DNA of 64,000 bases from Dehalococcoidia bacterium (GTDB taxonomy: Bacteria > Chloroflexota > Dehalococcoidia > Lucifugimonadales > UBA3495): the NCBI GenBank assembly GCA_965204865.1, contig OZ242027.1:3011986-3075985 (forward strand). The letters are read 5' to 3'. Both the position numbers and the translations under genes were made by a program. The notes under the pieces are model-generated. The model saw only the letters and a list, made by a program, of their open reading frames with translations. It was not told the origin of the DNA and did not search any database. This document shows, piece after piece, positions 9,272-55,591 of the stretch. Positions within the stretch are counted from its first letter, which is position 1; each line of letters starts with the position of its first letter.

Positions 9272-9805
9272 TCAATCAGCGGGTTCGGACGGGTTCTCCA
9301 GGTCCAACATCGCCAGCAATCGCCCGTACCCGATGAACATTCCGGTAATCATCCCCAGCTCGAAAATCTCGGGATCGGTGAACTCCCGCCGCAGTTCCGC
9401 GAAGAACTCGTCGTCCACGTTCTGGTGATCGACGGACATACGCTCGGCGAAGCGGACGGCCAGCTTCTCCCTGTAGGGCAAATCGGTGTCCTCGAAGTGT
9501 ACGAGTGACGCCACCATTTCCTCGGTCATTCCCTGCTGCACCGCCGGCACAGCGCGACCCAGCTTTCAAGTGGCGCACTCGTTCAGCTCGGCAATCTTCA
9601 GCCGCACCAACTCCTTCAGCCGCGCGTCCAGCAGACCCTCCAGCTTCAGCGGCCCATAGAAGGCCCAGAACGCCTCATAGGCATCCGGCAGGTTGCCCGC
9701 CGCCTGGAATATCCGCGGGTTCAGCTTGTGCTCGGCTGCCGCCTTGGCGATTTTCTGCATTCCGGGCGTTAGCTGCTCGGTTGGCACCAGCTTAATCCGG
9801 GCCAT
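9272..9805 (-). CDS. carboxymuconolactone decarboxylase/AhpD-like protein, candidate selenoprotein (in-frame TGA at 9566..9568)
   Basis: ORFs 9566..9835 and 9272..9550 share one frame and are separated only by a TGA. The junction reads IAELNECAT-[TGA]-KLGRAVPAV, which is the family N-x-C-x-x-C motif with TGA on the second Cys. A hairpin follows about 20 nt downstream. Start ATG 9805 follows AAGGGG. Confidence 0.7.
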
Positions 9806-13490: not shown

Positions 13491-13853
13491 ATGTACTCCA
13501 TCAGCTACCTCCGGCGCCAGGTCGACGCCCTCCAGCGCAAACTCAAACCCGTCCTCGCCATCCTCAAACTCCGCAACCTCGCCATGCAATTCTGCGACGA
13601 GTTCGACGAAGCCGTCCTCAGCGAAAACCCCCGCCAGCGCGACCTCACCGGCATCTGCATGATGTTCCCGCCCCGGGTGGGACAGGCCGGCTTCCGCCTG
13701 GACAAAGGCCAAGAGCTGGTGCGCTACTTCCTGGGCTGCATCCAGAACAGGACCGGCCCCGAACCCCGCGAGGTCGTGTTCACCCTCATCCCCTGGGCCA
13801 GGAAAGGCCCCCTCCTCCGCGCCGACCTCTGGGAGCGCCCCAACGCCGCCTGA
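13491..13853 (+). CDS. hypothetical 120-aa protein (paralog copy 1)
   Basis: RBS GAGGAGG. About 96% nucleotide identity by eye to 40223..40585 (minus strand). No recognisable domain. Confidence 0.6.
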   Translation: MYSISYLRRQVDALQRKLKPVLAILKLRNLAMQFCDEFDEAVLSENPRQRDLTGICMMFPPRVGQAGFRLDKGQELVRYFLGCIQNRTGPEPREVVFTLIPWARKGPLLRADLWERPNAA

Positions 13854-24767: not shown

Positions 24768-26246
24768 CTAACGGCCTCCGCCGTTGGGCAGTATGCCTCG
24801 AATTCGCAACTGTGTAATCAAGTGCTCTTGAGTTCGGTCCCCTTTGACCGAGTTGCAGGCTTGGCAAAGCAGTTGCAGGTTGCTGTCAATGTTCTGCCCG
24901 CCGCGTGCTGTGGGGATGATGTGATCGATGGTCATGTTGCGGAAGGGAAATAGAGTCTGGCATCCGTTGCAGATTCCTTCTTGCCTGCCGTATAGGACGT
25001 GTTTTATGTCACGGGAGCGTACTGCCTCGCCGCTGTCCGTTCTCACTGGCACGTCGGTGCGATGGGTGACATTGGCCAGCATACTGGGGCGGTCACCGTT
25101 ACCAACGTGAACCTCGCGTTCCAGCCGATCTCTGACCAGCCGGAAGGCCATCTCGCTGATGTCTATCCCAATCCACTGCCGCCCCAGCTTTTCCGCTGCT
25201 ACGCAGGCCGTGGCACACCCGCAGAACGGGTCGAAAACCACATCGCCCTCAATGGATGATGCGCCAACGATACGCTCCAATAGGCGCAGCGGCTTTTGAG
25301 TGGGATAGCCCGTGCGCTCTCTGGAACGGGCTGATATGGGCCTGATGTCATCCCACAGGTTGGTAGGCACCTGTCCAGGATTGGCAGCCAAGTAGCGCTT
25401 GATTCGAGGCATCCCGTCTGATTCGGAGTACTGGATCATGTTGGCGGCGTCTAAAGCATCCAGCCTGGCGTGTACACCGGTTATTTCCGTATATCCGGGA
25501 ATCACCTGATTGCTAATCCACTCCGCGTATCTTCCTGTACGGGGCACTGCCCAATGGCGATTATTGGAGTTCGGGTCATAAGTGCGCCAAGGAAGTCCTG
25601 TTTCCCCCTGCCTAGGACCAGCCCCGGTTAAATCACCAACCTGATACTGTCCCCTTGCGTCCGAGTGCCGGTAGAAAGACTCAACGTACTCGCGGTCTAA
25701 TGGAACTCGAATTGAATCTGCGTTTATATCGCCGGTACCGTAAACGATGATGCGGTCGCATACATTACCGAAGCGCCGTGAGTCATTGTGGGCCGAGGTG
25801 CGCCGCCAAGTTATCTCAGTTTGGAACAGTGCAGCACCAAACACCGCGTCCAGTAACATTTTCAGGTAGTGGCTGGCCGTCTGATCGCAATGCAGATACA
25901 GGGTGCCGCCAGGTTTGAGTATCCGTTGCATTTCCAGCAGGCGGATAGCCATATAGGTGAGGTATGCCTTGGTGCTTCTGCTTGCGACGGTTCCAGTGGC
26001 GTTGAGCATCTCGTGGACGCCTGGATGCTCGTCCGCGATTTGGCCGATCCACGCCTCATCTAAGTCGCTCAGCGTCCAAGTATCCTTGAACGCCGCGCCC
26101 GCCGCCTCACTGCCAATGGGGGCAGCGTAGTTGGTGTTGGAATTAAAAGGCGGATCAAGATAAATGAGGTCAATGGACTCACTGTCCATTCCCCGCATAA
26201 CTTCCAGATTGTCGCGGGTGAATATGGTGCGGTTGGCGATTTGCAT
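24768..26246 (-). CDS. DNA N4/N6-methyltransferase fused to a C-terminal HNH endonuclease domain
   Basis: Motif IV LIYLDPPFNS precedes motif I VVFDPFCGCATA (beta-class order). The C-terminus CNGC...HIIPTARGGQNIDSNLQLLCQACNSVKGDR is an HNH domain. Visibly lower GC than neighbours. Confidence 0.85.
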   Translation of the reverse strand: MQIANRTIFTRDNLEVMRGMDSESIDLIYLDPPFNSNTNYAAPIGSEAAGAAFKDTWTLSDLDEAWIGQIADEHPGVHEMLNATGTVASRSTKAYLTYMAIRLLEMQRILKPGGTLYLHCDQTASHYLKMLLDAVFGAALFQTEITWRRTSAHNDSRRFGNVCDRIIVYGTGDINADSIRVPLDREYVESFYRHSDARGQYQVGDLTGAGPRQGETGLPWRTYDPNSNNRHWAVPRTGRYAEWISNQVIPGYTEITGVHARLDALDAANMIQYSESDGMPRIKRYLAANPGQVPTNLWDDIRPISARSRERTGYPTQKPLRLLERIVGASSIEGDVVFDPFCGCATACVAAEKLGRQWIGIDISEMAFRLVRDRLEREVHVGNGDRPSMLANVTHRTDVPVRTDSGEAVRSRDIKHVLYGRQEGICNGCQTLFPFRNMTIDHIIPTARGGQNIDSNLQLLCQACNSVKGDRTQEHLITQLRIRGILPNGGGR

Positions 26247-27341: not shown

Positions 27342-28799
27342 CTACCGTCGCAGCGCCGCCCGCAGCGAGTACGACTGCGGCGAAATCGCCAGCCCGAACA
27401 CCTCGTCCTCCGGCAGCGGGTTGCCGTCCGGCCTCTCGAAGCGCAGCTTGTGCAGCATCCGGGTGATGTGCAGCCAGACCGTGGTTTCGGCGAAGCGGCG
27501 GCCGGGGCAGCGGCGGTGGCCGGTGCCGAAGGGGATGTAGGCCGGGCTGGTCAGCACGGGCGACATCGAGCCGTCAGGTTGGGGCAGGAATCGCTCCGGG
27601 ATGAACTCGTCGGGCGCGTCCCAGTAACGCGGGTTGTGGTGGATGGAGTAGATGTTGCCCAGGACCTGGGTTCTCGCCGGTATCCGGTAGCCGCCGATTT
27701 CCGTGTCCTCTGAGGCCATGTGCGGCAGGCCCAACGGGCCGATGGTGCGGTAGCGCATGGACTCGGCCAGGCAGGCGAAGGTGTAAGGCAAGCGCGTCCG
27801 GTCGTCCACTGTGGGCAGGGCGTCGTGGCCGATGACGCTATCCAGTTCCTCGTGGACTCTGGCCTGAATCTCCGGGCGGTTGGCCAGCAGCAACAGGAAC
27901 CAGTTGACCGTCTGCGCCGAAGTGTCGGTGCCGGCGATGAGCAAGTCCATGCATAGGTCGCAGGTCATGTCGTTGGTGATTTCGCCTGATTCCTCTCTGG
28001 ACAGCATCACCTCCACCAGGCAGGTGGGCGCCGAAAGGTCGAGACCGGGGCGGTTGCGGGCGGCTTCCACCAGGTCGCGGATGAGGGCTCCGCCGATTTC
28101 CGCCTGCCGAACGGCTTCCTTCAAGGCATTGCTGGGCAGGAGACGCAGCCAGGGGATGTAGTCAGCCAGGTTGGTGGCGGTGGCGCTGGCGAAAATGAAG
28201 TTGATATAGTCCAGCAGCGTATCCCGTTGTTGCAGGAACTCCGCGGTGTCGTCATCTTCCCGCCCGAAGACGGAGCGGAACATCAGCAGGGAGTTGCTGC
28301 GGGCCGTCATCACCATGGGCAGAACCGGCTCGCCGGCGTCGCCGTGCCGGGCCATTTGCTCCACTAGGCTGTTCACCACCCGCTCGATGTGCTGCTCGCG
28401 GACGTTATCAATGTTGCGGGCGCTCAACAGTTCCCGGTTGGCGAAGCGCTGCATCTGCCGCCAGTGGTCGCCGTAAGGGGCCATCACCAGGTCTTTCTGC
28501 CCGCTGAGGGCGTTCATAATTTCGCTGACCCAGCGATCGGCCAGTTCGGTCTTGCCGAAGGCGTCCTGCAACATTTCCGCGTTGCTGATTATCACTGTCG
28601 GCACGCTGCCGAAGCGCATCAGGCAGATGTCGCCGTAGCGCCGGGCCAGCCGGTCGATGGCGAGGTGAGTGTCGTGGCGTATCTCCAGCAGTGAGCCGAA
28701 CACAGGCATGCCGCGCGGACCCGGAGGCAGATTTTTGGGTAGAGTGGTAGTTACGGCGCTCATCTGTGCCACCTCTTCACGAAACACGGGGTGATTCAA
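27342..28799 (-). CDS. cytochrome P450
   Basis: Heme loop FGTGHRRCPGRRFAE and ExxR (ESMRYR). TTG start at 28799, or ATG at 28763. Confidence 0.85.
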   Translation of the reverse strand: MNHPVFREEVAQMSAVTTTLPKNLPPGPRGMPVFGSLLEIRHDTHLAIDRLARRYGDICLMRFGSVPTVIISNAEMLQDAFGKTELADRWVSEIMNALSGQKDLVMAPYGDHWRQMQRFANRELLSARNIDNVREQHIERVVNSLVEQMARHGDAGEPVLPMVMTARSNSLLMFRSVFGREDDDTAEFLQQRDTLLDYINFIFASATATNLADYIPWLRLLPSNALKEAVRQAEIGGALIRDLVEAARNRPGLDLSAPTCLVEVMLSREESGEITNDMTCDLCMDLLIAGTDTSAQTVNWFLLLLANRPEIQARVHEELDSVIGHDALPTVDDRTRLPYTFACLAESMRYRTIGPLGLPHMASEDTEIGGYRIPARTQVLGNIYSIHHNPRYWDAPDEFIPERFLPQPDGSMSPVLTSPAYIPFGTGHRRCPGRRFAETTVWLHITRMLHKLRFERPDGNPLPEDEVFGLAISPQSYSLRAALRR

Positions 28800-28803
28800 T
28801 AGG

Positions 28804-28839
28804 AAAACCCCCTCCTCTCCACTTTAACAAAGGAGGGGG
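28804..28839 (-). terminator. putative intrinsic terminator downstream of the GMC oxidoreductase gene
   Basis: Minus-sense CCCCCTCCT-N14-AGGAGGGGG followed by TTTT. Confidence 0.45.
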
Positions 28840-28918
28840 CCATGCAACAGGGGCAATTTCGTAATGCGGCCACCGTCGCACCATAATCCGGCGCAATAGT
28901 GAGCGAGAACTGCGACTT

Positions 28919-30463
28919 CTACCCGCCCTTGATGATGTCCGACATCCGCTCGGCAATCATTATGGTGGTGCAGTTGGTGTTGGCGCGGATGCAGTCGGGC
29001 ATTACCGAGGCGTCAATGACACGCAGGTTTTCCAAGCCCTTGACCCGGCACTGTTGGTCAACGACGGCCATGGGGTCGCTGTCCGGCCCCATCTTGCAGG
29101 TGCCGGAGATGTGCTGCGAAGTGGTGACGTTGCGCATCAGCCAGTTGTCCAGCGCCTCGTCCGACTCCAGGTCGGAAGGCAGTGGCTCGAGCAGCCCCTT
29201 CACGATGTCGGCGTAGTCGGGGTGGTCGAGGAAGCCCACGCAGAGCCGCACGGCCTCGCGCATCCGGGCTAGGTCGCGGGGGTCGTCGGCGAAGTAGTTG
29301 TAGTTCAGCTCCGGCTGCACGTTGGGATCAGTAGACGTGATGGTCAGGTGGCCCTTGCCGTAGGCCAGCTCCAGGATGCAGGTGAAGCGGATGCCCTCGG
29401 CCTCCAGCGGGTCGCCGGAGATGGGCGACGAGAAGGACGACGCCATAATCTGGATGTCGTTGCGCAACTCGGAGCCAGTGGCGGTGTAGCGCAGCGCCAC
29501 CTGGGTGCGCGGGTCCTGCGGGTTCAGAGGGAAGTCCTCCTTAACCTCGATGGGCACGCGGATGTTGGGATGGTCGCGCAGGTTCTGGCCGATGCCGGGG
29601 GTGTCCTGCACCACCGGGATGCCGAACTTTTCCAGCGTGGCCGCCGGGCCGACCCCGGACAGCATCAGTATTTGCGGCGAGGCGATGGCCCCGGAGCAGA
29701 GGATGATTTCCTCGCCCTCGACGGTGAACCGCTCGCCGCCGCTCTCCACCTCGGCCCCAATGGCCTTTTTGCCGTCGAACAGCACGCGGTGAACGGTGAC
29801 GTTGGCCTTGACCGTCAGGTTCAGGCGGTGGCGGGCGGCGCCAAGGAAGGTCAGGGAGGTGCTCATCCGCACGCCGTTGGGGTTGTTCATCGGGATGGGG
29901 CCGACTCCGCCCGATTCAGGGTGATTCATGTCCGGGTCATCGGGGAATCCTGCGGTGCGGGCGGCGTTGTAGAACGCCTGCTGCGCCGGCAGCCAAGTCT
30001 CCCGCGCGAAGCGGCGCACCGGGATGAAGCCGTCGGAGTTATGAAAGTCGTCGGCCCCGAAGTCCATGTCGCTTTCCAGCTTGCGCAGGTAGGGCAGGAC
30101 GCTGGTGAAGCCCCACTGGTCGTTGCCCAGGGCGGCCCAGGCGTCGTAATCCTCGGGCACGCCGCGCAACAGCACCTGGCCGTTGATGGCGCTGGAGCCA
30201 CCCACCACCCGGCCCCGCGGCACCGGCATCGGCTCGGTCTGCAACGGCGTGGTGTTGCCCTGGAAGGACCAGTTGTGTGGCGCGTCAATGGCCGATGCGG
30301 TCTGGTCATAGCCAAACTTCAGGTCGTCGGGGTAGGTCTCGAAGTCCGGGTAGTCCGGCCCGGCCTCCAGCAGCAGGACGGACTTGGAGGGATCTTCCGA
30401 CAACCGGCTGGCCATAGTGCAGCCGGCGGAGCCTGCGCCGAGGATGATGTAGTCGTATTTCAT
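28919..30463 (-). CDS. GMC family oxidoreductase (choline dehydrogenase-like)
   Basis: MKYDYIILGAGSAGC FAD motif and GGSSAINGQV. 514 aa. Confidence 0.85.
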   Translation of the reverse strand: MKYDYIILGAGSAGCTMASRLSEDPSKSVLLLEAGPDYPDFETYPDDLKFGYDQTASAIDAPHNWSFQGNTTPLQTEPMPVPRGRVVGGSSAINGQVLLRGVPEDYDAWAALGNDQWGFTSVLPYLRKLESDMDFGADDFHNSDGFIPVRRFARETWLPAQQAFYNAARTAGFPDDPDMNHPESGGVGPIPMNNPNGVRMSTSLTFLGAARHRLNLTVKANVTVHRVLFDGKKAIGAEVESGGERFTVEGEEIILCSGAIASPQILMLSGVGPAATLEKFGIPVVQDTPGIGQNLRDHPNIRVPIEVKEDFPLNPQDPRTQVALRYTATGSELRNDIQIMASSFSSPISGDPLEAEGIRFTCILELAYGKGHLTITSTDPNVQPELNYNYFADDPRDLARMREAVRLCVGFLDHPDYADIVKGLLEPLPSDLESDEALDNWLMRNVTTSQHISGTCKMGPDSDPMAVVDQQCRVKGLENLRVIDASVMPDCIRANTNCTTIMIAERMSDIIKGG

Positions 30464-30525
30464 GCTTGTCTCCTTTTGTTAATGCTCCCTCTCCCTTTGG
30501 GAGAGGGTTGGGGTGAGGGCGTCCC

Positions 30526-31236
30526 CTAACCCTTCAGGTGAGCGTTGAAGAACTCTATCGTCCGGGGCCAGGACGCTTCCGACGCTTCCTGCTGGTGGCG
30601 CAGCCCGGTGTAGTCCATGAAGGCGTGATCGGCCCCCGGATAGGTGTGGAATTCATGCGCCACACCCAATCGGCCTAGCTCGGCGTCCAGCTTGTCCCGG
30701 TCCTCGAGGGACGGGTTCTCGTCTATTTCGCCAAAGTGGAACAGCACCGGGCACTGGATGCCGGAGGCCAGCTCGAAGGGCGTCTGCTCCCCGGCGCCCC
30801 AGGTGACGAAGATGTTGCCACCGTAGTAGGGGGCGCAGGCGCGGATGTGGCGGTTGGTGGCCGCGCCCAGCCAGGCGACCCGCCCGCCCATGCAGAAGCC
30901 AGTGATGCCGATGCGCTCGCCCTGAATGGCCGGATGGGCCCGCAGCCAGTCCACCGTGGCCCCGATGTCCGCCACTATATCCGGGTCGCTCATGTGCTGG
31001 ATGCGGCCGGTGCGATTGTCCAGTTGCTCCTCGGTGAAACGGTGGAACAGGTTGGGCGCGACGGCGGCAAACCCGGCCTCGGCCAGCTTGTCGGCCATGT
31101 CGCGGATGAACTGGTCCACGCCGCCGCCGTGCTGGCTGACGATGACCGCCGGGAACGGGCCGCCCCCGCTGGGCACGCTGGCGTAGACGTGCATATCGAG
31201 TCCGCCCACGGGTATTGTTTCCCAGAATGAAGCCAT
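30526..31236 (-). CDS. dienelactone hydrolase family protein
   Basis: Nucleophile elbow GITGFCMGG and the C-terminal YPGADHAF motif. Confidence 0.8.
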   Translation of the reverse strand: MASFWETIPVGGLDMHVYASVPSGGGPFPAVIVSQHGGGVDQFIRDMADKLAEAGFAAVAPNLFHRFTEEQLDNRTGRIQHMSDPDIVADIGATVDWLRAHPAIQGERIGITGFCMGGRVAWLGAATNRHIRACAPYYGGNIFVTWGAGEQTPFELASGIQCPVLFHFGEIDENPSLEDRDKLDAELGRLGVAHEFHTYPGADHAFMDYTGLRHQQEASEASWPRTIEFFNAHLKG

Positions 31237-31435
31237 CTCTTCCCTCCGTCAGATGGTATAGCTAATCTGGCGCATTATCTCCCAGCTACGAGATTACGCT
31301 GTCTGTGATGATGTGCTATCCGCGCATTTGCGACAGATTATAGCCCAGCAGAGCGTTGTCAACAAAACGCAGCATCTGCCGTTTCACGCTCTCACGTGGT
31401 AGGATACCGCCAACACTCGAATGGAGGTAAGCGGT

Positions 31436-32203
31436 ATGGCCATGGACGTTCAGGTCTATACCCAGCCTGGTTGATTCAGTTGCCGGACTCTGGAAGAGTT
31501 CCTAAAGTCCAACGGCGTTCCTTACGAACATCACGACCTGCTCAGCGAACCCGCCGCGGTGGAGCATCTGCGCAGCCGGGGCATCAAGTCGCTGCCAGTC
31601 ACCATCATTGATGACACCGAGATCATCATCGGCTATTACCCCAAGAAGCTGATACCGGCTCTGAAGCTGGACGTGTCCGTTGACCTGTCGGGCAAGACCG
31701 CGTGGCTGGCCGAGAAGTACGACGCCATAATGAGCGCGGCGGTACGGGCCAACAACCAGTTCAGCCAGGAACAACTCGACGCCATCGTGCCGTGGCGGCC
31801 TTGGAGTCTGCGTGACACGGTGGTTCACATCCTGGCCTTCCCGGAGATCGCCTACCTGTCCCACGAGGTGGGCAGCATGAGCTGGGACGATATGCAAGCC
31901 CAGGACAAGCGGCTGGAGGGCGTCACCACCGCGCCGCAGATTGCCGAGTACGGCCTACAGGTTCGGGACGACATCATCGCCTTCCTGGACAGCGGCAACA
32001 CCGAGGGCTTCGAGCGCGTGGTGCCGGCCCACTACGGCGGCGAGGTCACGGTGCTAGAACTGCTCAACATCGTGCTGAGCCACAGCACCCACCACCTCAA
32101 GCAGGTCTACCACTACATGACCACTGACCTGGGCATGACCCCGGACAACCCGGCCACCGACGCCGACCTGGAAGGCATCCAGACGCCGGACGCGCTGATT
32201 TAG
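31436..32203 (+). CDS. glutaredoxin-like / DinB-like fusion protein, candidate selenoprotein (in-frame TGA at 31472..31474)
   Basis: The frame of ORF 31559..32203 is open back to ATG 31436 (GGAGGT 7 nt upstream) except for one TGA. The N-terminus MAMDVQVYTQPG-[TGA]-FSCRTLEEFLKSNGVPYEHHDL matches the NrdH/Grx CxxC region. The C-terminal HSTHHLKQV is DinB-like. A hairpin lies 17 nt after the TGA. Confidence 0.7.
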
Positions 32204-32254
32204 GCTTAACCGCAGAGAACGCAGAGGGCAAGGAGCATTTGGGGAGGTAAAGCG

Positions 32255-32452
32255 ATGGCAAAAGTCGGCAAGGAGGTTCTGGTAGCGGTTCAGGACGCTT
32301 TGGAACAGTACGAGCAAGAGGTTCAAGATGCCGAGGAATCCGGCTTTTTAACGGAGCAGACCAAGAAAACTTACCTGCTCCACGCCAAGCACTTCGTCCG
32401 CTGGCTCGACGACGACTTCGAACCCGGCGGACGGGGAAAAAACAACAGATAA
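32255..32452 (+). CDS. small hypothetical protein
   Basis: 65-aa lower-GC ORF bracketed by inverted CRCAGAG-type repeats. RBS GGGGAGG lies upstream. Confidence 0.35.
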   Translation: MAKVGKEVLVAVQDALEQYEQEVQDAEESGFLTEQTKKTYLLHAKHFVRWLDDDFEPGGRGKNNR

Positions 32453-32510
32453 TAATCTCCGTGTTCTCTGTGCGCTCTGTGTTGAATCCGTCTCCTGTAA
32501 GGAGGGAAAT

Positions 32511-34058
32511 ATGAAGTATGACTACATCGTGATTGGCGCCGGTTCCGCCGGCTCAATCATCGCCACGCGGCTGACCGAGGACCCCAATGTCTCGGTGCTG
32601 CTGCTGGAGGCTGGGCCGGACTACCCCGACTTCGAGCGGCTGCCCGAAGAGGTCAAGTTCGGCTACTCCACCGAAATAGACATCATGGTCAGCGACCATA
32701 ACTGGCAGTTCATCGGCAAGGCGACGGAGAGCGCCCCGCCGATGATGGTGCCGCGCGGCAAGGTCACCGGCGGCTCCAGCGCCATCAACGGCCAAGTGTT
32801 CCTGCGCGGCGTGCCCGAGGACTACGATTCCTGGGCGGAGATGGGCAACGACGAGTGGAAGTACACCGACTGCCTGCCCTACTTCCGTAAGCTGGAGACC
32901 GACAGCGACTTCTCCGACGACTTCCACGGCACCGACGGCCCCATCGTGTGCCACCGATTCAAGCCGGAGACTTGGCACCCGGCGCAGACGGCCTTCTACC
33001 AAGCCTGCCGCGAGGCCGGGTTCCCGGACAGCCCAGACCACAACAACCCGGAATCTACCGGCGTCGGCCCCACGCCCTTCAACAACCCCGGCGGCGTACG
33101 CATGAGCACCGCCCTGGGCTATCTGGATCAGACGCGCCATCGTCTCAACCTAACCATCCGAGCCAATTGCCACGTGCAGAAGATTCTGTTCGAGGGCAAC
33201 CGGGCCGTCGGCGCGTGGGTAGAGAGCGGGGGCGAGGTCTTTACCGTCGAGGGCAACGAGATAATCCTCAGCTCCGGCGCCATCGGCTCGCCGCATATCC
33301 TCCTGCTGTCGGGCGTCGGCCCGGCGGCGCACCTGCAAGAGCATGGCATCCCGGTGGTGGCCGACCTGCCCGGCGTGGGCCAGAATATGCGCGATCATCC
33401 CTTGGTCTGGGTGACCTGGCGCACCAGGCCGGAGGTGCCGCTGGACGGCCTGGCTCCCCGGATGCAGGTGACGCTGCGCTACACCGCCGACGGCTCGCCC
33501 CTGCGCAACGACATGAAGATGTCCATGCAGTCCTTCGCCACCGAGCGCATCAATCGGGGCGGCGACCGGATGGAGCCGGTGGGCATCCGCCTGACCAGCG
33601 GCATCCAGCTCGCGGCGGGCGCGGGCGAACTGCGGCTCAACTCTGCCGACCCTTCGCAGCAGCCATTCCTCGACTACCGCTACTTGGAAGACCCCTTCGA
33701 CCTGGAGCGGCTGCGGGAGACGGTGCGCCTCTGCGTCAAGCTGGGCGAGAGCGACGCCTTCAAGGACATCATCCAGGAGCGCATCGAACCCACCGACGAC
33801 GAACTGGCGACGGACGAGGCCTTGGACGAGTACCTGTTCCGCGAGGTGACCACCTCGCAGCACATATCCTGCACCGCCAAGATGGGATCGGCCGACGACC
33901 CCATGGCCGTGGTCAGCCAGTACGGCAAGGTGCACGGGCTGGAGGGCCTGCGGGTGGCCGACGCCTCCATAATGCCCGACTGCATCCGCGCCAACACCAA
34001 CGTGACCACGATGATGATCGGCGAGCGGGTGGCGGAGTTCATCAAGGCGGGGAAGTAG
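32511..34058 (+). CDS. GMC family oxidoreductase (paralog of 28919..30463)
   Basis: MKYDYIVIGAGSAGS FAD motif. Aligns along its full length with the other GMC gene. Confidence 0.85.
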   Translation: MKYDYIVIGAGSAGSIIATRLTEDPNVSVLLLEAGPDYPDFERLPEEVKFGYSTEIDIMVSDHNWQFIGKATESAPPMMVPRGKVTGGSSAINGQVFLRGVPEDYDSWAEMGNDEWKYTDCLPYFRKLETDSDFSDDFHGTDGPIVCHRFKPETWHPAQTAFYQACREAGFPDSPDHNNPESTGVGPTPFNNPGGVRMSTALGYLDQTRHRLNLTIRANCHVQKILFEGNRAVGAWVESGGEVFTVEGNEIILSSGAIGSPHILLLSGVGPAAHLQEHGIPVVADLPGVGQNMRDHPLVWVTWRTRPEVPLDGLAPRMQVTLRYTADGSPLRNDMKMSMQSFATERINRGGDRMEPVGIRLTSGIQLAAGAGELRLNSADPSQQPFLDYRYLEDPFDLERLRETVRLCVKLGESDAFKDIIQERIEPTDDELATDEALDEYLFREVTTSQHISCTAKMGSADDPMAVVSQYGKVHGLEGLRVADASIMPDCIRANTNVTTMMIGERVAEFIKAGK

Positions 34059-34327
34059 GGGGAGGGCTATTGTCTCCCCCATTTTCATAGGTAAACACAC
34101 CGGAAAGGGAGTCGGCAATGTCTCTATTTCTGATTTCGGCTATGGGGTTTCTGTATCACAGGCTGTTGAGGAGGCGTACTTCCCCTCCGCCTTCGTACTG
34201 CCGCCACTACCTGACCCATCAGCCGGTAAAGATGGTGGACTAACAGGTTTCCCAAGAGGCACTGCCAAGCACACTAAGGCCGCGGACCTTTCGCCCCGTG
34301 GCCTTACGTTTTCTGCCTGATCCGCTG

Positions 34328-34879
34328 TCAGGTTCGTGGCGTCATCAGCCAGTCCTGGCTCTTGGCATCCTCGCTCATCCACTGGGAGTAGGATTCCTGG
34401 CGGCCCGCAGGCGGCTCCACGCCGAGGCTGTCGGCGAGGCGGGTCATGAAGTTGAAGTTGCAGGTTATCAGTACGGTGGACAGTATCTGCTCATCGCTGA
34501 GTCCGTGGTTTCGCAGCCGCTGCACGTCGGACTGGGTCATGGCGGCGGGCGTGCGCGTCAGCTTGGCGGCGAAGTCCAACATCGCGCGGGTCTGAGGGTC
34601 GAGTTCGGCTTGGGTGTAGTCGTGCATCATATGGCTGGCCAGTTCCGGGTTGTCCGAATGGTCACGGAGGAACCCCCCGTGAGCCATGGTTCAATAGCGG
34701 CAGTGGTTGGTGGCCGAAACCACAGTGGCAATGGCTTCCTCCTGCACCCTGGTCAGGGCGGATGCGCCGAAGGTGACCGCCATGTTCAGCCGCTGCACAG
34801 CCTCCATCGCCTGGGGCTGAATCGACATTATCTTGATGACTTCCGGCAGATTGACTTCTTCTTCACGAATCCAGGCCAT
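34328..34879 (-). CDS. AhpD-family peroxidase-related protein, candidate selenoprotein (in-frame TGA at 34691..34693)
   Basis: ORFs 34691..34879 and 34328..34687 share one frame. The junction is VSATNHCRY-[TGA]-TMAHGGFL, which is the N-x-C-x-Y-C-x-x-x-H motif with TGA on the second Cys. A hairpin begins 5 nt after the TGA. AGGAG lies 7 nt before ATG 34879. Confidence 0.7.
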
Positions 34880-34954
34880 TGAATTACTCCTGAATTAGAC
34901 CGCGCCATTCCAATTACGCGGCTATACTTCTTCACTACTCCGCCAGACGAAGGT

Positions 34955-35830
34955 CTACGCCCGCCCGAACCAGTCGGGGTGCACCGCCTGCAACCCCAGT
35001 TGCGGCCACGCTGCCGGGGCGCTGCACTTCTCCAGCCGTTCATCGAGGGGCAGCGAGTCGTCCCAGTAGTAAGCGATGATGCGGCGGCCGTTCCAGTGGC
35101 TGGCGTCGTCTGAGGCTATCCAGACCGCCGGCGACTGCATCGCCTCGGGCTGGATTAGCGCATCAGTGGACGCGCCTTCGGGCGGTATCACCATGTTGGT
35201 GGCGGTGGCCCCGCCGGGGGTAAGCACGTTGGCGGTGACGCCGGTGCCTTCAAGGTCCTGGGCCATGATGGCCACCAGCGCTTCGTGCCCCGCCTTGGAC
35301 GGGCCGTAGGGCGCGCCGCCCTTGCGCCACATGGTGTCCATGCTGGTGGTCACGCCGATGATGCGCCCGAATCCCTGCTCGATCATGTGAGGCGCGACGG
35401 CGTGGGACATCAGGAACGGGCCGCTGAGGTTGACGCTGATAACTCGCAGCCAGGCATCGGCGGGCAAGGTCCAGAAGTCGTTCTGGCTTCCGGCGGCCCG
35501 CGCTCCGAACCCTCCGGTGCGGGCGTTAATGCCGGCGTTGTTGACCAGTATATGCAGCCCGCCCATTTCGTTGATGGTGCGCTGCACTGCGCTCTCCACC
35601 GACTCCGGGTCGGTGACGTCGGCTACAATGGGCAGTACTGCGTCATCGCCGCCTATCTCGCGCATATCGTTGGCGGACTGGTCCAGCCAGTCCTCATTGA
35701 CGTCCAGCATCGCCACTCTTGCCCCGGCACGCACCAGACCGGTAGTGATGGAGCGGCCCATGCCGATGGGGCTGGCTGCCCCGGTGACGATGGCGATTCT
35801 GCCTTCCAGCGTGTTGGATTGGGTGGTCAT
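34955..35830 (-). CDS. SDR family oxidoreductase
   Basis: IAIVTGAASPIGMG Rossmann motif, NNAG, and catalytic YxxxK (YGPSK). Confidence 0.85.
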   Translation of the reverse strand: MTTQSNTLEGRIAIVTGAASPIGMGRSITTGLVRAGARVAMLDVNEDWLDQSANDMREIGGDDAVLPIVADVTDPESVESAVQRTINEMGGLHILVNNAGINARTGGFGARAAGSQNDFWTLPADAWLRVISVNLSGPFLMSHAVAPHMIEQGFGRIIGVTTSMDTMWRKGGAPYGPSKAGHEALVAIMAQDLEGTGVTANVLTPGGATATNMVIPPEGASTDALIQPEAMQSPAVWIASDDASHWNGRRIIAYYWDDSLPLDERLEKCSAPAAWPQLGLQAVHPDWFGRA

Positions 35831-35867
35831 TTCATTCCTCGACTAGAAAATGGTCACGGGGCCTCGA

Positions 35868-54760: not shown

Positions 54761-55591
54761 ATGGGCAAAGAGCGTATCGAGCGGATGTTTGCCAGCGTCC
54801 GGGAGCGGGAGCGTCCCGGACTTATCGTATTTCTGACCGCCGGGGTTCCCGACATGGAGGCCACGCTGGAACTGGTTCCGGCGCTGGTGGCAGCCGGTGC
54901 CGACGCCGTGGAGCTGGGAGTGCCTTTCAGCGATCCGCTGGCCGAGGGGCCGGTCATCCAGCAGTCGAGCTTTCTGGCGTTGCAGAAGGGCGTGAGCACC
55001 GCCGATTGCCTGCGGGCCACCGAGACGCTGCGCCACCGGATTCCCGACGCGCCGCTGATACTGATGGGCTACTACAACCCGGTGCTTTCCTATGGCATCT
55101 CGCCCTTTGCCGCCGAGTGCCAGCGCGTGGGGGTGGACGGTCTCATCACCGTGGACTTGCCCGGAACGGAGTCGGGGCCGCTGGCCGCCGAGTGCGACAG
55201 CCGCGACATTTCGCTTATTCCCCTGCTGGCGCCTACCAGCACCGAGGAAAGTATTGCCGAGTCCTGCCGCAACGCCAGCGGGTTCGTGTACTGCGTCAGC
55301 GTTACCGGCGTTACCGGAGCGCGAATGGAGGTCTCCGGACGGGGGCTGGAACTGCTTGAGCGGGTTCGCGCTCATACCGGCCTGCCGCTGGCCCTCGGGT
55401 TCGGAATTTCAGCGCCGGAGCACGTGGTCGAGGTCGGCAGGACAGCCGACGCCGCCGTGGTGGGCAGCGCGCTGGTGCGGATTACGCTGGAATCGCCCCG
55501 GGACGAAGTGGTGGAACGAGCGAGCGCCTTCGTGGCGTCGCTGGCCGGGCGGACTCCCGCCGCGCAGTCCGCAGACGGAGGACGCCGATGA
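54761..55591 (+). CDS. trpA: tryptophan synthase alpha chain
   Basis: GADAVELGVPFSDPLAEGPVIQ and YCVSVTGVTG motifs. Trimmed to MGKERIERMF. Confidence 0.9.
   Translation: MGKERIERMFASVRERERPGLIVFLTAGVPDMEATLELVPALVAAGADAVELGVPFSDPLAEGPVIQQSSFLALQKGVSTADCLRATETLRHRIPDAPLILMGYYNPVLSYGISPFAAECQRVGVDGLITVDLPGTESGPLAAECDSRDISLIPLLAPTSTEESIAESCRNASGFVYCVSVTGVTGARMEVSGRGLELLERVRAHTGLPLALGFGISAPEHVVEVGRTADAAVVGSALVRITLESPRDEVVERASAFVASLAGRTPAAQSADGGRR

What the first reader, a model, noticed from the sequence alone, without database searches (positions are those of the whole stretch)
34328..34879. Second AhpD-family (peroxidase-related) gene with TGA at the second Cys of N-x-C-x-Y-C
ORFs 34691..34879 and 34328..34687 (minus strand) are in one frame. 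The junction is ATVVSATNHCRY-[TGA]-TMAHGGFLRDH. The peroxidase-related AhpD core motif is N-x-C-x-Y-C-x-x-x-H, so the TGA (34691..34693) again occupies the resolving or attacking Cys position, giving C-R-Y-U. Five nt after the TGA the mRNA forms GG(C)UCACGG / CCGUGACC (34685..34660). Its 9-nt loop GGGGUUCCU can extend to leave a G-U-U apex about 18-20 nt from the UGA. The joined length is 183 aa, typical for the family. The gene is last in a co-directional cluster: LLM monooxygenase, halogenase-like, cyclase, SDR.
Basis: partly seen in the sequence, partly recalled or inferred. Interest (0 to 1): 0.7.

Follow-up and report, generated by a model that had tools for sequence, protein, structure and literature searches.

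The report
Unannotated AhpD-like selenoprotein gene in SAR202
The in-frame TGA is real and almost certainly encodes selenocysteine at the second (Cys133-equivalent) position of the C-x-x-C motif of an AhpD-like redox protein in a SAR202/Dehalococcoidia bacterium; this selenoprotein family has been known since 2005, but public gene calls split this gene in two.

Summary
The minus-strand ORF 34879..34328 has one in-frame TGA, at 34693..34691 (NHCRY-TGA-TMAHGG). The joined 183-aa protein passes NCBIfam TIGR01926, "peroxidase-related enzyme" (127.9 bits, cutoff 81.8). The TGA aligns with the second Cys of N-x-C-x-Y-C-x3-H in solved homologs 2pfx, 3c1l and 2prr.

- **Conservation:** 80 of 80 orthologs from different SAR202/Dehalococcoidia species (62-96% identity) keep the TGA.
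- **Selection:** purifying selection is equally strong on both sides (dN/dS 0.01-0.36).
- **No restart:** 32 of 80 orthologs have no start codon within 10 codons after the TGA.
- **Hairpin:** a stem with a GUU triloop (ACGGRGG-GUU-CCUCCGU) puts its loop G 18 nt from the UGA. It occurs in every ortholog and shows compensatory changes. It is absent from six Gly-codon homologs that encode the same or a nearly identical (HGGFLR-type) peptide. It is far more stable than synonymous recodings (P about 2e-4).
- **Reassignment excluded:** the gene itself ends in TGA.

AhpD-like CxxU selenoproteins have been listed since 2005. Two genomes that carry orthologs are in a published top-10 list of selenoprotein-rich bacteria. 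No Sec machinery lies in the window. This is a correct but ordinary find.

The parts
34328..34879 (-). Complete AhpD-like (TIGR01926) selenoprotein gene: 183 codons plus stop. It starts at ATG 34879..34877, and its own stop codon is TGA at 34330..34328.
   Evidence: Pfam CMD E = 3.8e-12, and TIGR01926 127.9 bits against a cutoff of 81.8. PDB 2pfx E = 2.6e-26.
34887..34891 (-). Shine-Dalgarno-like AGGAG, 7 nt upstream of the ATG.
   Evidence: Read directly from the sequence. The N-terminus MAWIREE / MSWIEE is conserved in full-length homologs.
34691..34693 (-). In-frame TGA, codon 63: predicted selenocysteine, the second position of C-R-Y-U.
   Evidence: TGA in 80 of 80 orthologs. It aligns with the second Cys of CxYC in 2pfx, 3c1l and 2prr and with CxxC in distant full-length homologs.
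34658..34687 (-). bSECIS-like hairpin as it folds in this window: 13 pairs with bulged C34683, starting 3 nt after the UGA (first paired base is nt 7, counting the U of UGA as nt 1).
   Evidence: MFE -22.4 kcal/mol for the 54-nt stretch. The 30-nt core gives -14.4 kcal/mol, z = -2.9.
34664..34680 (-). Family-wide conserved core of the hairpin, ACGGRGG-GUU-CCUCCGU. The apical loop GUU lies at 34673..34671, with its G 18 nt from the A of the UGA.
   Evidence: the stem is kept in all 75 distinct sequences, and the closing pair is GC in 60, AU in 10 and CG in 4, with 1 break; 4-fold sites in the stem are almost invariant; the hairpin is absent from 6 Gly-codon homologs, and the synonymous-recoding null gives P about 2e-4.
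34679..34738 (-). Active-site helix-turn-helix with the AhpD proton-relay residues: Glu48 (34738..34736), Cys60 (34702..34700), Tyr62 (34696..34694), Sec63 and His67 (34681..34679).
   Evidence: The spacing E-x11-C-x-Y-U-x3-H equals Glu36/Cys48/Tyr50/Cys51/His55 of PA0269 and Glu118/Cys130/His132/Cys133/His137 of M. tuberculosis AhpD (PMC3141380). Glu, Cys and His are invariant in 80 of 80 orthologs.
34955..39956 (-). Upstream co-directional genes: SDR 34955-35830, putative cyclase 35868-36797, FAD-dependent halogenase/monooxygenase-like 36859-38628, and luciferase-like monooxygenase 38658-39956.
   Evidence: This synteny is kept only in the close clade L001-L003 and L007-L019.

Best explanation
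This is one gene for a 183-residue AhpD-like (TIGR01926 / COG2128 'peroxidase-related') selenoprotein of a SAR202-type Dehalococcoidia bacterium.

**Decoding.** UGA codon 63 is read as selenocysteine, not as stop. A short hairpin follows it, with a 7-13 bp stem and a GUU apical loop whose G lies 18 nt from the UGA. By analogy with bacterial SECIS elements, this hairpin would recruit SelB-GTP-Sec-tRNA(Sec) to the ribosome. The same mRNA ends at an ordinary UGA at codon 184, which has no such hairpin.

**Chemistry.** Sec63 occupies the place of the second cysteine of the C-x-x-C motif (Cys133 of M. tuberculosis AhpD, Cys51 of PA0269). It sits in an intact Glu48...Cys60-x-Tyr62-Sec63...His67 proton relay. 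The protein therefore most likely works as a selenol/thiol oxidoreductase that cycles through a Cys60-Sec63 selenenylsulfide, either reducing a peroxiredoxin-type partner or a small oxidised substrate, or acting as a weak hydroperoxidase.

**Shown here:** gene unity, TGA conservation, the Cys/Sec column, the conserved hairpin under RNA-level selection, and family membership.

**Inferred:** actual Se incorporation, the SelB interaction, and the enzyme's substrate and partner.
For: - **Frame and family:** (TIGR01926 127.9 bits against a cutoff of 81.8).
- **Cys at the homologous position:** solved homologs 2pfx, 3c1l and 2prr have NxCxYC...AHG. Distant full-length representatives have CxxC: P0174, P0194, P0195, P0216, P0222, P0230, P0240, P0243.
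- **Conservation:** TGA in 80 of 80 species-level genomes at 62-96% identity. More than 100 database clusters are 119-aa 'MAHGGF...' fragments, that is, the same split call.
- **Both halves translated:** dN/dS is 0.01-0.36 on each side.
- **No restart:** 32 of 80 orthologs have no start codon within 10 codons after the TGA; in 36 the next residue is Ala and in 32 the one after is Val, typically read GCC GTC GCC.
- **Hairpin:** it is present in all orthologs. The closing pair shows three pair types (GC 60, AU 10, CG 4, 1 break), and 14 cells have a change on both sides against 1.8 +/- 1.1 in shuffles.
- **Synonymous sites:** stem sites are nearly fixed, GGG 80/80, CTC 76/80 and CGT 73/80. Four-fold sites elsewhere vary freely.
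- **Controls:** six homologs with a real Gly codon and the same or a nearly identical HGGFLR-type peptide do not form this hairpin. The observed -14.4 kcal/mol compares with -6.9 +/- 1.8 for synonymous recodings, P about 2e-4.
- **No reassignment:** the gene ends in TGA, and other genes in the window also end in TGA.
- **Second case in the same genome:** a second CMD-family gene in the window (TGA 9566..9568, NECAT-U-KLG) shows the same pattern of fragmentary homologs and has a CALC homolog.
- **Literature:** 'AhpD-like protein, TIGR01926/COG2128, CxxU' is a listed prokaryotic selenoprotein family (PMC1088965, PMC2398784, PMC13188914). Dehalococcoidia bacterium UBA1141 (49 selenoprotein genes) and isolate 10f4566d-... 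(46) are in the BSepDB top-10 list (PMC13326102). Both carry orthologs with the TGA (L027, L029, L037).
Against: - No selA, selB, selD or tRNA-Sec was found in the 64-kb window or in the 90 related loci held. The Sec machinery of this particular genome is therefore not demonstrated.
- No Rfam family matches the hairpin.
- The stem overlaps the strongly conserved peptide H-G-G-F-L-R, so part of its nucleotide conservation is protein-driven and only one pair shows double-sided covariation.
- The nearest full-length relatives (47-55% identity) carry Gly, not Cys, at this position. That is atypical for a Sec/Cys family.
- There is no experimental evidence of Se incorporation.
Confidence: 0.9

Rival explanations
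1. Split gene or two-subunit protein: the TGA is a true stop. A 62-aa N-terminal peptide and a separately initiated 119-aa protein (ATG at 34687) are made, as the public gene calls imply.
For: Gene callers produce exactly these two ORFs. More than 100 clusters of 119-aa proteins exist. In the window an ATG lies two codons after the TGA.
Against: There is no Shine-Dalgarno sequence before that ATG. In L003/L017 that codon is TTG, in L019 CTG, and in 32 orthologs (mostly the U-A-V-A-H type) GTC or GTG. In all, 32 of 80 orthologs have no start codon within 10 codons. The break falls inside the C-x-x-C helix of a fold that is a single chain in five crystal structures. This model gives no reason for a conserved hairpin with fixed synonymous sites.
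Confidence: 0.04
2. SECIS-independent stop-codon read-through, or a lineage-wide reassignment of UGA (to Trp or Gly): a standard amino acid, not Sec, is inserted at codon 63.
For: Single short metagenome contigs carry TGG, and proteins with R or L at this site were also found (P0002/L006, P0001, P0014). The sister clade has Gly (GGG). The Sec machinery was not seen in the window.
Against: This gene and many others in the window terminate at TGA. Only two coding-frame TGAs exist in 64 kb, and both sit at the second Cys of a CMD/AhpD C-x-x-C motif. The position is catalytic in this fold and is Cys in homologs. Sister genomes are catalogued Sec users.
Confidence: 0.04
3. Pseudogene or sequencing/assembly error: the TGA is a recent nonsense mutation or a base-call error in a Cys (TGC/TGT) codon.
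For: A single-base change from TGC or TGT would give TGA. MAG assemblies contain errors.
Against: The TGA is found in 80 of 80 independent assemblies, including long-read complete chromosomes, across 62-96% protein identity. Purifying selection acts downstream of the TGA.
Confidence: 0.01

Closest known systems
AhpD-like selenoprotein family (COG2128 / TIGR01926, CxxU). First described from the Sargasso Sea metagenome (PMC1088965). It was the fourth most abundant selenoprotein family in GOS, as 'AhpD-like 1' with 299 genes (PMC2398784), and it is listed in the 2026 review PMC13188914.
   Same: The domain family is the same: TIGR01926 is passed. The Sec position is the same, the second residue of C-x-x-U. 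The habitat is marine. A small G-containing apical loop lies downstream of the UGA, and Cys homologs are widespread.
   Different: No different architecture or motif was found. This is a lineage-specific (SAR202/Dehalococcoidia) clade, C-R-[YF]-U-[TA]-x-A-H-G. Its nearest TGA-free relatives carry Gly rather than Cys. I could not retrieve the published example (MCB9421940.1) to measure identity.
NCBIfam NF041238 'AhpD_rel_CFYUT' alkylhydroperoxidase-related (seleno)protein (Sargasso Sea 'hypothetical protein 1').
   Same: It has a C-x-Y-U-T motif (CFYUT against CRYUT here) and a CMD/AhpD-type domain.
   Different: That model is 357 positions long. The window protein matches only its C-terminal half, at 65.5 bits against a cutoff of 175, so it is not a member.
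Mycobacterium tuberculosis AhpD and P. aeruginosa PA0269 (Cys-containing AhpD enzymes).
   Same: The proton relay E-x11-C-x-[HY]-C-x3-H is fully retained, as E48/C60/Y62/U63/H67. The fold is all-helical, shown by sequence matches to PDB 2pfx, 3c1l, 2prr, 6k40 and 2oyo.
   Different: Sec replaces the second Cys. No ahpC or peroxiredoxin gene lies next to it in the window. The partner and substrate are unknown.
E. coli fdhF-type bacterial SECIS.
   Same: [quoted passage not shown]
   Different: The stem is much shorter and perfect, with a 3-nt (or 5-nt) loop. No conserved bulged U was identified. No Rfam SECIS model matches.

Membership tests
TIGR01926 peroxidase-related enzyme (AhpD-like, COG2128) | The whole-protein HMM score is above the curated cutoff. 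| tested here: met
   127.9 bits against a cutoff of 81.8, covering residues 6-156 of the joined protein. Pfam CMD gives 46.5 bits against 23.
TIGR01926 peroxidase-related enzyme (AhpD-like, COG2128) | AhpD core motif and proton relay, E-x11-C-x-x-C-x3-H. | tested here: met
   E48, C60, Y62, U63 (in place of Cys) and H67 are present. E, C and H are invariant in 80 of 80 orthologs. The alignment to 2pfx, 3c1l and 2prr puts U on the second Cys. The motif definition comes from PMC3141380.
Bacterial selenoprotein | An in-frame UGA conserved among orthologs, with a coding sequence under selection on both sides. | tested here: met
   80 of 80 orthologs have TGA. dN/dS is 0.01-0.36 on both sides.
Bacterial selenoprotein | Cys-containing homologs aligned at the UGA position. 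| tested here: met
   Caveat: the nearest TGA-free clade has Gly.
Bacterial selenoprotein | A SECIS-like stem-loop immediately downstream of the UGA, with a G in a small apical loop. | tested here: met
   The loop is GUU, 18 nt from the UGA. There is one covarying pair, the synonymous sites are fixed, and Gly-codon controls lack the hairpin. Binding to SelB was not tested.
Bacterial selenoprotein | The genome encodes SelA, SelB, SelD and tRNA-Sec. | not testable with these tools
   None was found in the 64-kb window or in the held loci, and whole genomes could not be queried. Indirect support: two ortholog-bearing genomes (UBA1141 and isolate 10f4566d-...) are listed among Sec-pathway species with 49 and 46 selenoprotein genes (PMC13326102).
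Bacterial selenoprotein | Selenium is physically incorporated at the UGA position. | not testable with these tools
   This needs 75Se labelling or mass spectrometry.
NF041238 AhpD_rel_CFYUT (seleno)protein | The score is above the curated cutoff, over the 357-position two-part architecture. | tested here: not met
   65.5 bits against a cutoff of 175. Only model positions 177-344 are matched.
Rfam SECIS families | A covariance-model match. | tested here: not met
   There was no hit at gathering thresholds in the window and none up to E = 10 in 34300-34900. Rfam's bacterial SECIS models are lineage-specific (my own knowledge), so this does not argue against the function.

The most novel reading that the evidence does not exclude
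In SAR202 this AhpD-like clade may perform a selenium-specific chemistry that cysteine cannot replace. All 80 species keep Sec. No Cys form was found above about 47% identity. The only TGA-free close relatives have Gly at the site and are often fused to a Pox_D5-like C-terminal domain, which suggests loss of the redox function rather than a Sec-to-Cys swap. In the window's clade the enzyme may be a dedicated redox partner of the adjacent LLM monooxygenase, FAD halogenase-like, cyclase and SDR genes that degrade recalcitrant, possibly halogenated, organic matter.
Probability: 0.12. Interest if true: 0.55.

Novelty: new member of a known kind. Interest (0 to 1): 0.3.

Why it matters
**Annotation.** Public gene calls split this gene into a 62-aa and a 119-aa 'hypothetical protein' in more than 100 protein clusters and in every SAR202 genome examined. 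A conserved redox enzyme of an abundant marine and sponge-associated lineage is therefore missing from functional inventories. Recognising it, and its sibling at 9566, adds to the evidence that SAR202/Dehalococcoidia have large selenoproteomes.

**A search pattern.** It also supplies a compact, well-conserved SECIS variant: a 7-bp stem with a GUU triloop, embedded in the H-G-G-F-L-R codons. This could serve as a search pattern for this lineage.

**Limits.** It does not change what is known about selenoproteins. The family, the motif and the mechanism were all described previously.

Tried and rejected
- **Rfam:** searches at gathering thresholds and at E up to 10 on the locus gave no SECIS or other relevant family.
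- **tRNA-Sec:** the ARAGORN scan of the window and of 86 related loci found none.
- **Sec machinery in the window:** the Pfam survey of about 55 window ORFs found no SelA, SelB or SelD.
- **Plasmid megablast of the locus:** no match.
- **Third locus:** an HMM built from this clade did not detect other AhpD-like genes in the window because they are too divergent.
- **Genome-wide UGA reassignment:** rejected, because the gene ends in TGA and in-frame TGAs are otherwise absent from coding frames.
- **Code-25 or code-4 translations:** I considered that the Gly and Trp 'homologs' were artefacts of such translations of TGA. This is rejected for Gly, where the codons are real GGG or GGT. The single TGG contig (L006) keeps the hairpin, so it is probably a recent mutation or a read error.
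- **Cluster linkage:** the operon link to the halogenase cluster is only weakly supported, because the synteny is restricted to the close clade and 1.4-kb insertions separate the SDR gene from this gene in several relatives.

Full report
**1. The observation**

On the minus strand, an ATG at 34879 is preceded by AGGAG 7 nt upstream. It opens a frame that runs to TGA at 34330..34328 and is interrupted only by TGA at 34693..34691. The junction reads ATVVSATNHCRY-TGA-TMAHGGFLRDH, and the joined product is 183 residues.

Across the whole 64-kb window I looked for in-frame TGAs flanked on both sides by at least 40 codons with the genome's coding signature (GC3 about 0.8-0.9, GC2 about 0.45). Only two exist: this one and 9566..9568.

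**2. What the protein is**

With Cys substituted for the TGA, the protein matches:
- Pfam CMD (PF02627, E = 3.8e-12);
- NCBIfam TIGR01926 'peroxidase-related enzyme', at 127.9 bits against a curated cutoff of 81.8;
- the crystal structures 2pfx, 3c1l, 2prr, 6k40 and 2oyo, at E = 1e-21 to 3e-26.

In the three alignments printed (2pfx, 3c1l, 2prr), the TGA column is the second Cys of N-x-C-x-Y-C-x-x-A-H-G. The five residues of the AhpD proton relay are Glu-x11-Cys-x-His/Tyr-Cys-x3-His, that is Glu36/Cys48/Tyr50/Cys51/His55 in PA0269 and Glu118/Cys130/His132/Cys133/His137 in M. tuberculosis AhpD (PMC3141380). All five are present with identical spacing, as Glu48, Cys60, Tyr62, codon 63 and His67. 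Glu, Cys and His are invariant in 80 orthologs.

The protein scores well below the cutoff of NF041238, 'AhpD_rel_CFYUT (seleno)protein' (65.5 against 175), so it is not that family.

**3. Is the TGA real and conserved?**

A protein search returned more than 100 clusters of 119-residue proteins beginning MAHGGF... at 64-95% identity. This is the same downstream fragment, called separately by gene finders.

Three long ENA contigs (3.1-5.2 Mb) show the same pair of 62-aa and 119-aa ORFs in the same neighbourhood. A scan of one genome per GTDB species returned 80 loci. All are SAR202, Dehalococcoidia or Chloroflexota MAGs, many of them long-read complete chromosomes, at 62-96% identity over residues 1-183. 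The codon is TGA in 80 of 80.

Nei-Gojobori estimates between the window and 14 orthologs give dN/dS of 0.01-0.36 for the 62 codons before the TGA. The 100 codons after it give 0.03-0.29. Both parts are therefore translated in this frame.

In 32 of 80 orthologs no ATG, GTG or TTG occurs within ten codons after the TGA; a large U-A-V-A-H-type clade typically reads TGA GCC GTC GCC. In L003/L017 the 'start' is TTG and in L019 it is CTG. Independent initiation of the downstream part is therefore not a conserved feature.

**4. The hairpin**

In the window, the 54 nt from the UGA fold with nt 7-20 pairing to nt 24-36, one bulged C, and a G21-U22-U23 triloop. The energy is -22.4 kcal/mol (z = -2.5). 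The 30-nt core gives -14.4 kcal/mol (z = -2.9).

Across the family the conserved part is ACGGRGG-GUU-CCUCCGU, nt 14-30 after the U of UGA. It forms in every ortholog, at -7.3 to -15.6 kcal/mol with a mean of -11.9.

On the 81-sequence alignment A2, pair counts show:
- five of the seven core pairs always form a standard pair, the outermost A-U pair (columns 20-36) is broken in 7 of 75 distinct sequences, and an eighth outer pair forms only in the closest clade;
- two pairs toggle between A-U or G-C and G-U;
- the loop-closing pair occurs as G-C (60), A-U (10) and C-G (4), with a single break.

That makes 14 cells with a change on both sides, against 1.8 +/- 1.1 in shuffles.

The A-U variant couples a non-synonymous change (Gly to Glu, GGG to GAG) to a synonymous one (TTC to TTT). 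The C-G variant couples Gly to Ala (GGG to GCG) with Phe to Leu (TTC to TTG).

The stem encodes the conserved peptide H-G-G-F-L-R, so I ran two controls.
- **(a) Synonymous sites.** Four-fold degenerate sites inside the stem are nearly fixed (GGG 80/80, CTC 76/80, CGT 73/80). Four-fold sites outside it vary freely, for example CGN 30/28/14/8 and CCN 27/27/24/2.
- **(b) Homologs without the TGA.** Six homologs have a genuine Gly codon at the site and the same or a nearly identical HGGFLR-type peptide. They use other codons (GGC GGC TTC TTG CGT and others) and do not form this hairpin. Re-encoding the window's peptide 5000 times with the window's own codon usage gives -6.9 +/- 1.8 kcal/mol against the observed -14.4, a fraction of 0.0002.

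The hairpin is thus selected at the RNA level, and only where a TGA precedes it. Its position in the coding region just 3' of the UGA matches published descriptions of bacterial SECIS elements, and its small G-containing apical loop matches the Sargasso Sea description (PMC1088965). No Rfam model matches.

**5. Not a reassigned codon**

The gene's own terminator is TGA. Other confident genes in the window also end in TGA, for example trpA at 55591, which overlaps the start of the next gene. In-frame TGAs are otherwise absent from coding frames.

**6. Sec trait of the organism**

The window holds no tRNA. No SelA, SelB or SelD domain appears among about 55 ORFs. None of the 90 related loci holds a tRNA-Sec. 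I could not query whole genomes, so the machinery is undemonstrated for this genome.

There are two pieces of indirect evidence.
- A second CMD-family gene in the same window (about 9805..9272, minus strand) has TGA at the second Cys position (NECAT-TGA-KLG). Its own downstream hairpin has a G-rich triloop. Its database homologs are mostly C-terminal fragments of about 98-101 aa, and one full-length homolog has C-A-L-C.
[quoted passage not shown] Its top ten bacteria by selenoprotein count include Dehalococcoidia bacterium UBA1141 (49 genes) and isolate 10f4566d-ab44-49ae-b774-fc9f760c6436 (46 genes) (PMC13326102). These are the sources of my loci L027 and L029/L037, which carry orthologs with the TGA and the hairpin.

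**7. Mechanism proposed**

- **Shown:** this is one gene. The UGA is at the second (Cys133-equivalent) position of the C-x-x-C motif and is followed by a selected hairpin.
- **Inferred from the established bacterial Sec pathway:** SelB-GTP-Sec-tRNA(Sec) binds the hairpin's apical part and delivers Sec to the UGA.
- **Inferred from AhpD enzymology (PMC3141380):** Sec63 is activated by the Glu48/His67/water relay. It attacks an oxidised partner or a peroxide, and Cys60 resolves the adduct into a selenenylsulfide. That the second Cys is the attacking nucleophile in M. tuberculosis AhpD is my own recollection of the mutagenesis literature and was not checked here.
- **Unknown:** the partner. No peroxiredoxin gene is nearby.

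**8. Genomic context**

The co-directional LLM monooxygenase, FAD halogenase-like, cyclase and SDR genes upstream are conserved only in the close clade, L001-L003 and L007-L019. The same holds for the convergent GMC oxidoreductase and DinB genes downstream. In several of these relatives about 1.4 kb of extra ORFs separates the SDR gene from this gene.

A second large clade instead has an unrelated SDR gene (about 30% identity) directly downstream. A third clade has tRNA-Gly(CCC) next to the gene. A dedicated functional link to the halogenase-like cluster is therefore weakly supported.

**9. Comparison with what is known, and novelty**

'AhpD-like protein' selenoproteins with C-x-x-U (COG2128/TIGR01926) were reported from the Sargasso Sea in 2005, with 27 sequences (PMC1088965). 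They rank fourth among selenoprotein families in GOS, with 299 genes against 902 Cys homologs (PMC2398784). Current reviews list them (PMC9312934, PMC13188914). The window's gene meets the family's defining features, so it is a new, unannotated member of a known kind. The SAR202 orthologs may already be catalogued in BSepDB; I could not check this.

One mildly unusual point concerns the nearest relatives without the TGA, at 47-55% identity. They carry Gly (GGG or GGT) and occasionally Asn or Ala, not Cys. Many of them have a long C-terminal extension that ends in a Pox_D5-like domain.

**10. Verdict**

The finding is a solid but ordinary selenoprotein gene, useful mainly for correcting annotation. 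Interest 0.3.

Noticed in passing
window 9272..9805 (minus strand), TGA at 9566..9568: A second CMD/AhpD-family gene (Pfam CMD, E = 3.7e-7) has an in-frame TGA at the second Cys position (LNECAT-TGA-KLGRAV). A downstream hairpin (GCUGUGCC-GGC-GGUGCAGC) follows it.
   Followed up: partly
proteins P0033-P0062 and P0125-P0139; loci L004, L005, L087-L090: The closest TGA-free relatives of the selenoprotein (47-55% identity) have a genuine Gly codon (GGG or GGT), sometimes Asn or Ala, where Sec or Cys is expected (C-R-Y-G-A-L-T-H). Many carry 100-300 extra C-terminal residues that end in a Pox_D5-like domain (PF03288, E = 4e-6 in P0134). This looks like a redox-dead, fused offshoot of an AhpD-like clade.
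   Followed up: partly
whole window (rough gene calls): Stop-codon usage is dominated by TAG (32 TAG, 18 TGA, 8 TAA among 58 coding-like ORFs), and some of the TGA-ending calls are selenoprotein fragments. TAG as the commonest stop is unusual for a 63% G+C genome. It might relate to heavy use of UGA for Sec. This was not tested.
   Followed up: no
window 13491..13853 (+) and 40223..40585 (-): Two 120-aa ORFs on opposite strands contain the same peptide stretch (an identical 25-residue out-of-frame translation at 13660 and 40414). This suggests a duplicated small gene or mobile element. Neither has a Pfam hit.
   Followed up: no
window 24768..26246 (-): This ORF fuses a DNA methylase (N6_N4_Mtase) with a C-terminal HNH endonuclease domain. 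Its GC3 is noticeably lower (0.63) than that of neighbouring genes (0.8-0.9), which suggests a horizontally acquired restriction-modification-type gene.
   Followed up: no
window 41724..42382 (+): A Phd/YefM antitoxin and PIN-domain toxin pair with a 4-nt overlap.
   Followed up: no
loci L020-L024, L029, L038, L040, L044, L047, L050, L083: In one clade of orthologs a tRNA-Gly(CCC) gene lies 0.1-3 kb downstream of the selenoprotein gene. In L071 and L077 tRNA-Ser genes lie there instead. The gene therefore often sits next to tRNA genes rather than in a fixed operon.
   Followed up: no
window 27342..34058: The region next to the selenoprotein gene is dense in oxidative catabolic genes: cytochrome P450, two GMC oxidoreductases (28919-30463 and 32511-34058), a dienelactone hydrolase and a DinB-family protein. 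The same set is syntenic in L001-L003. This fits the oxidative degradation lifestyle described for SAR202.
   Followed up: partly
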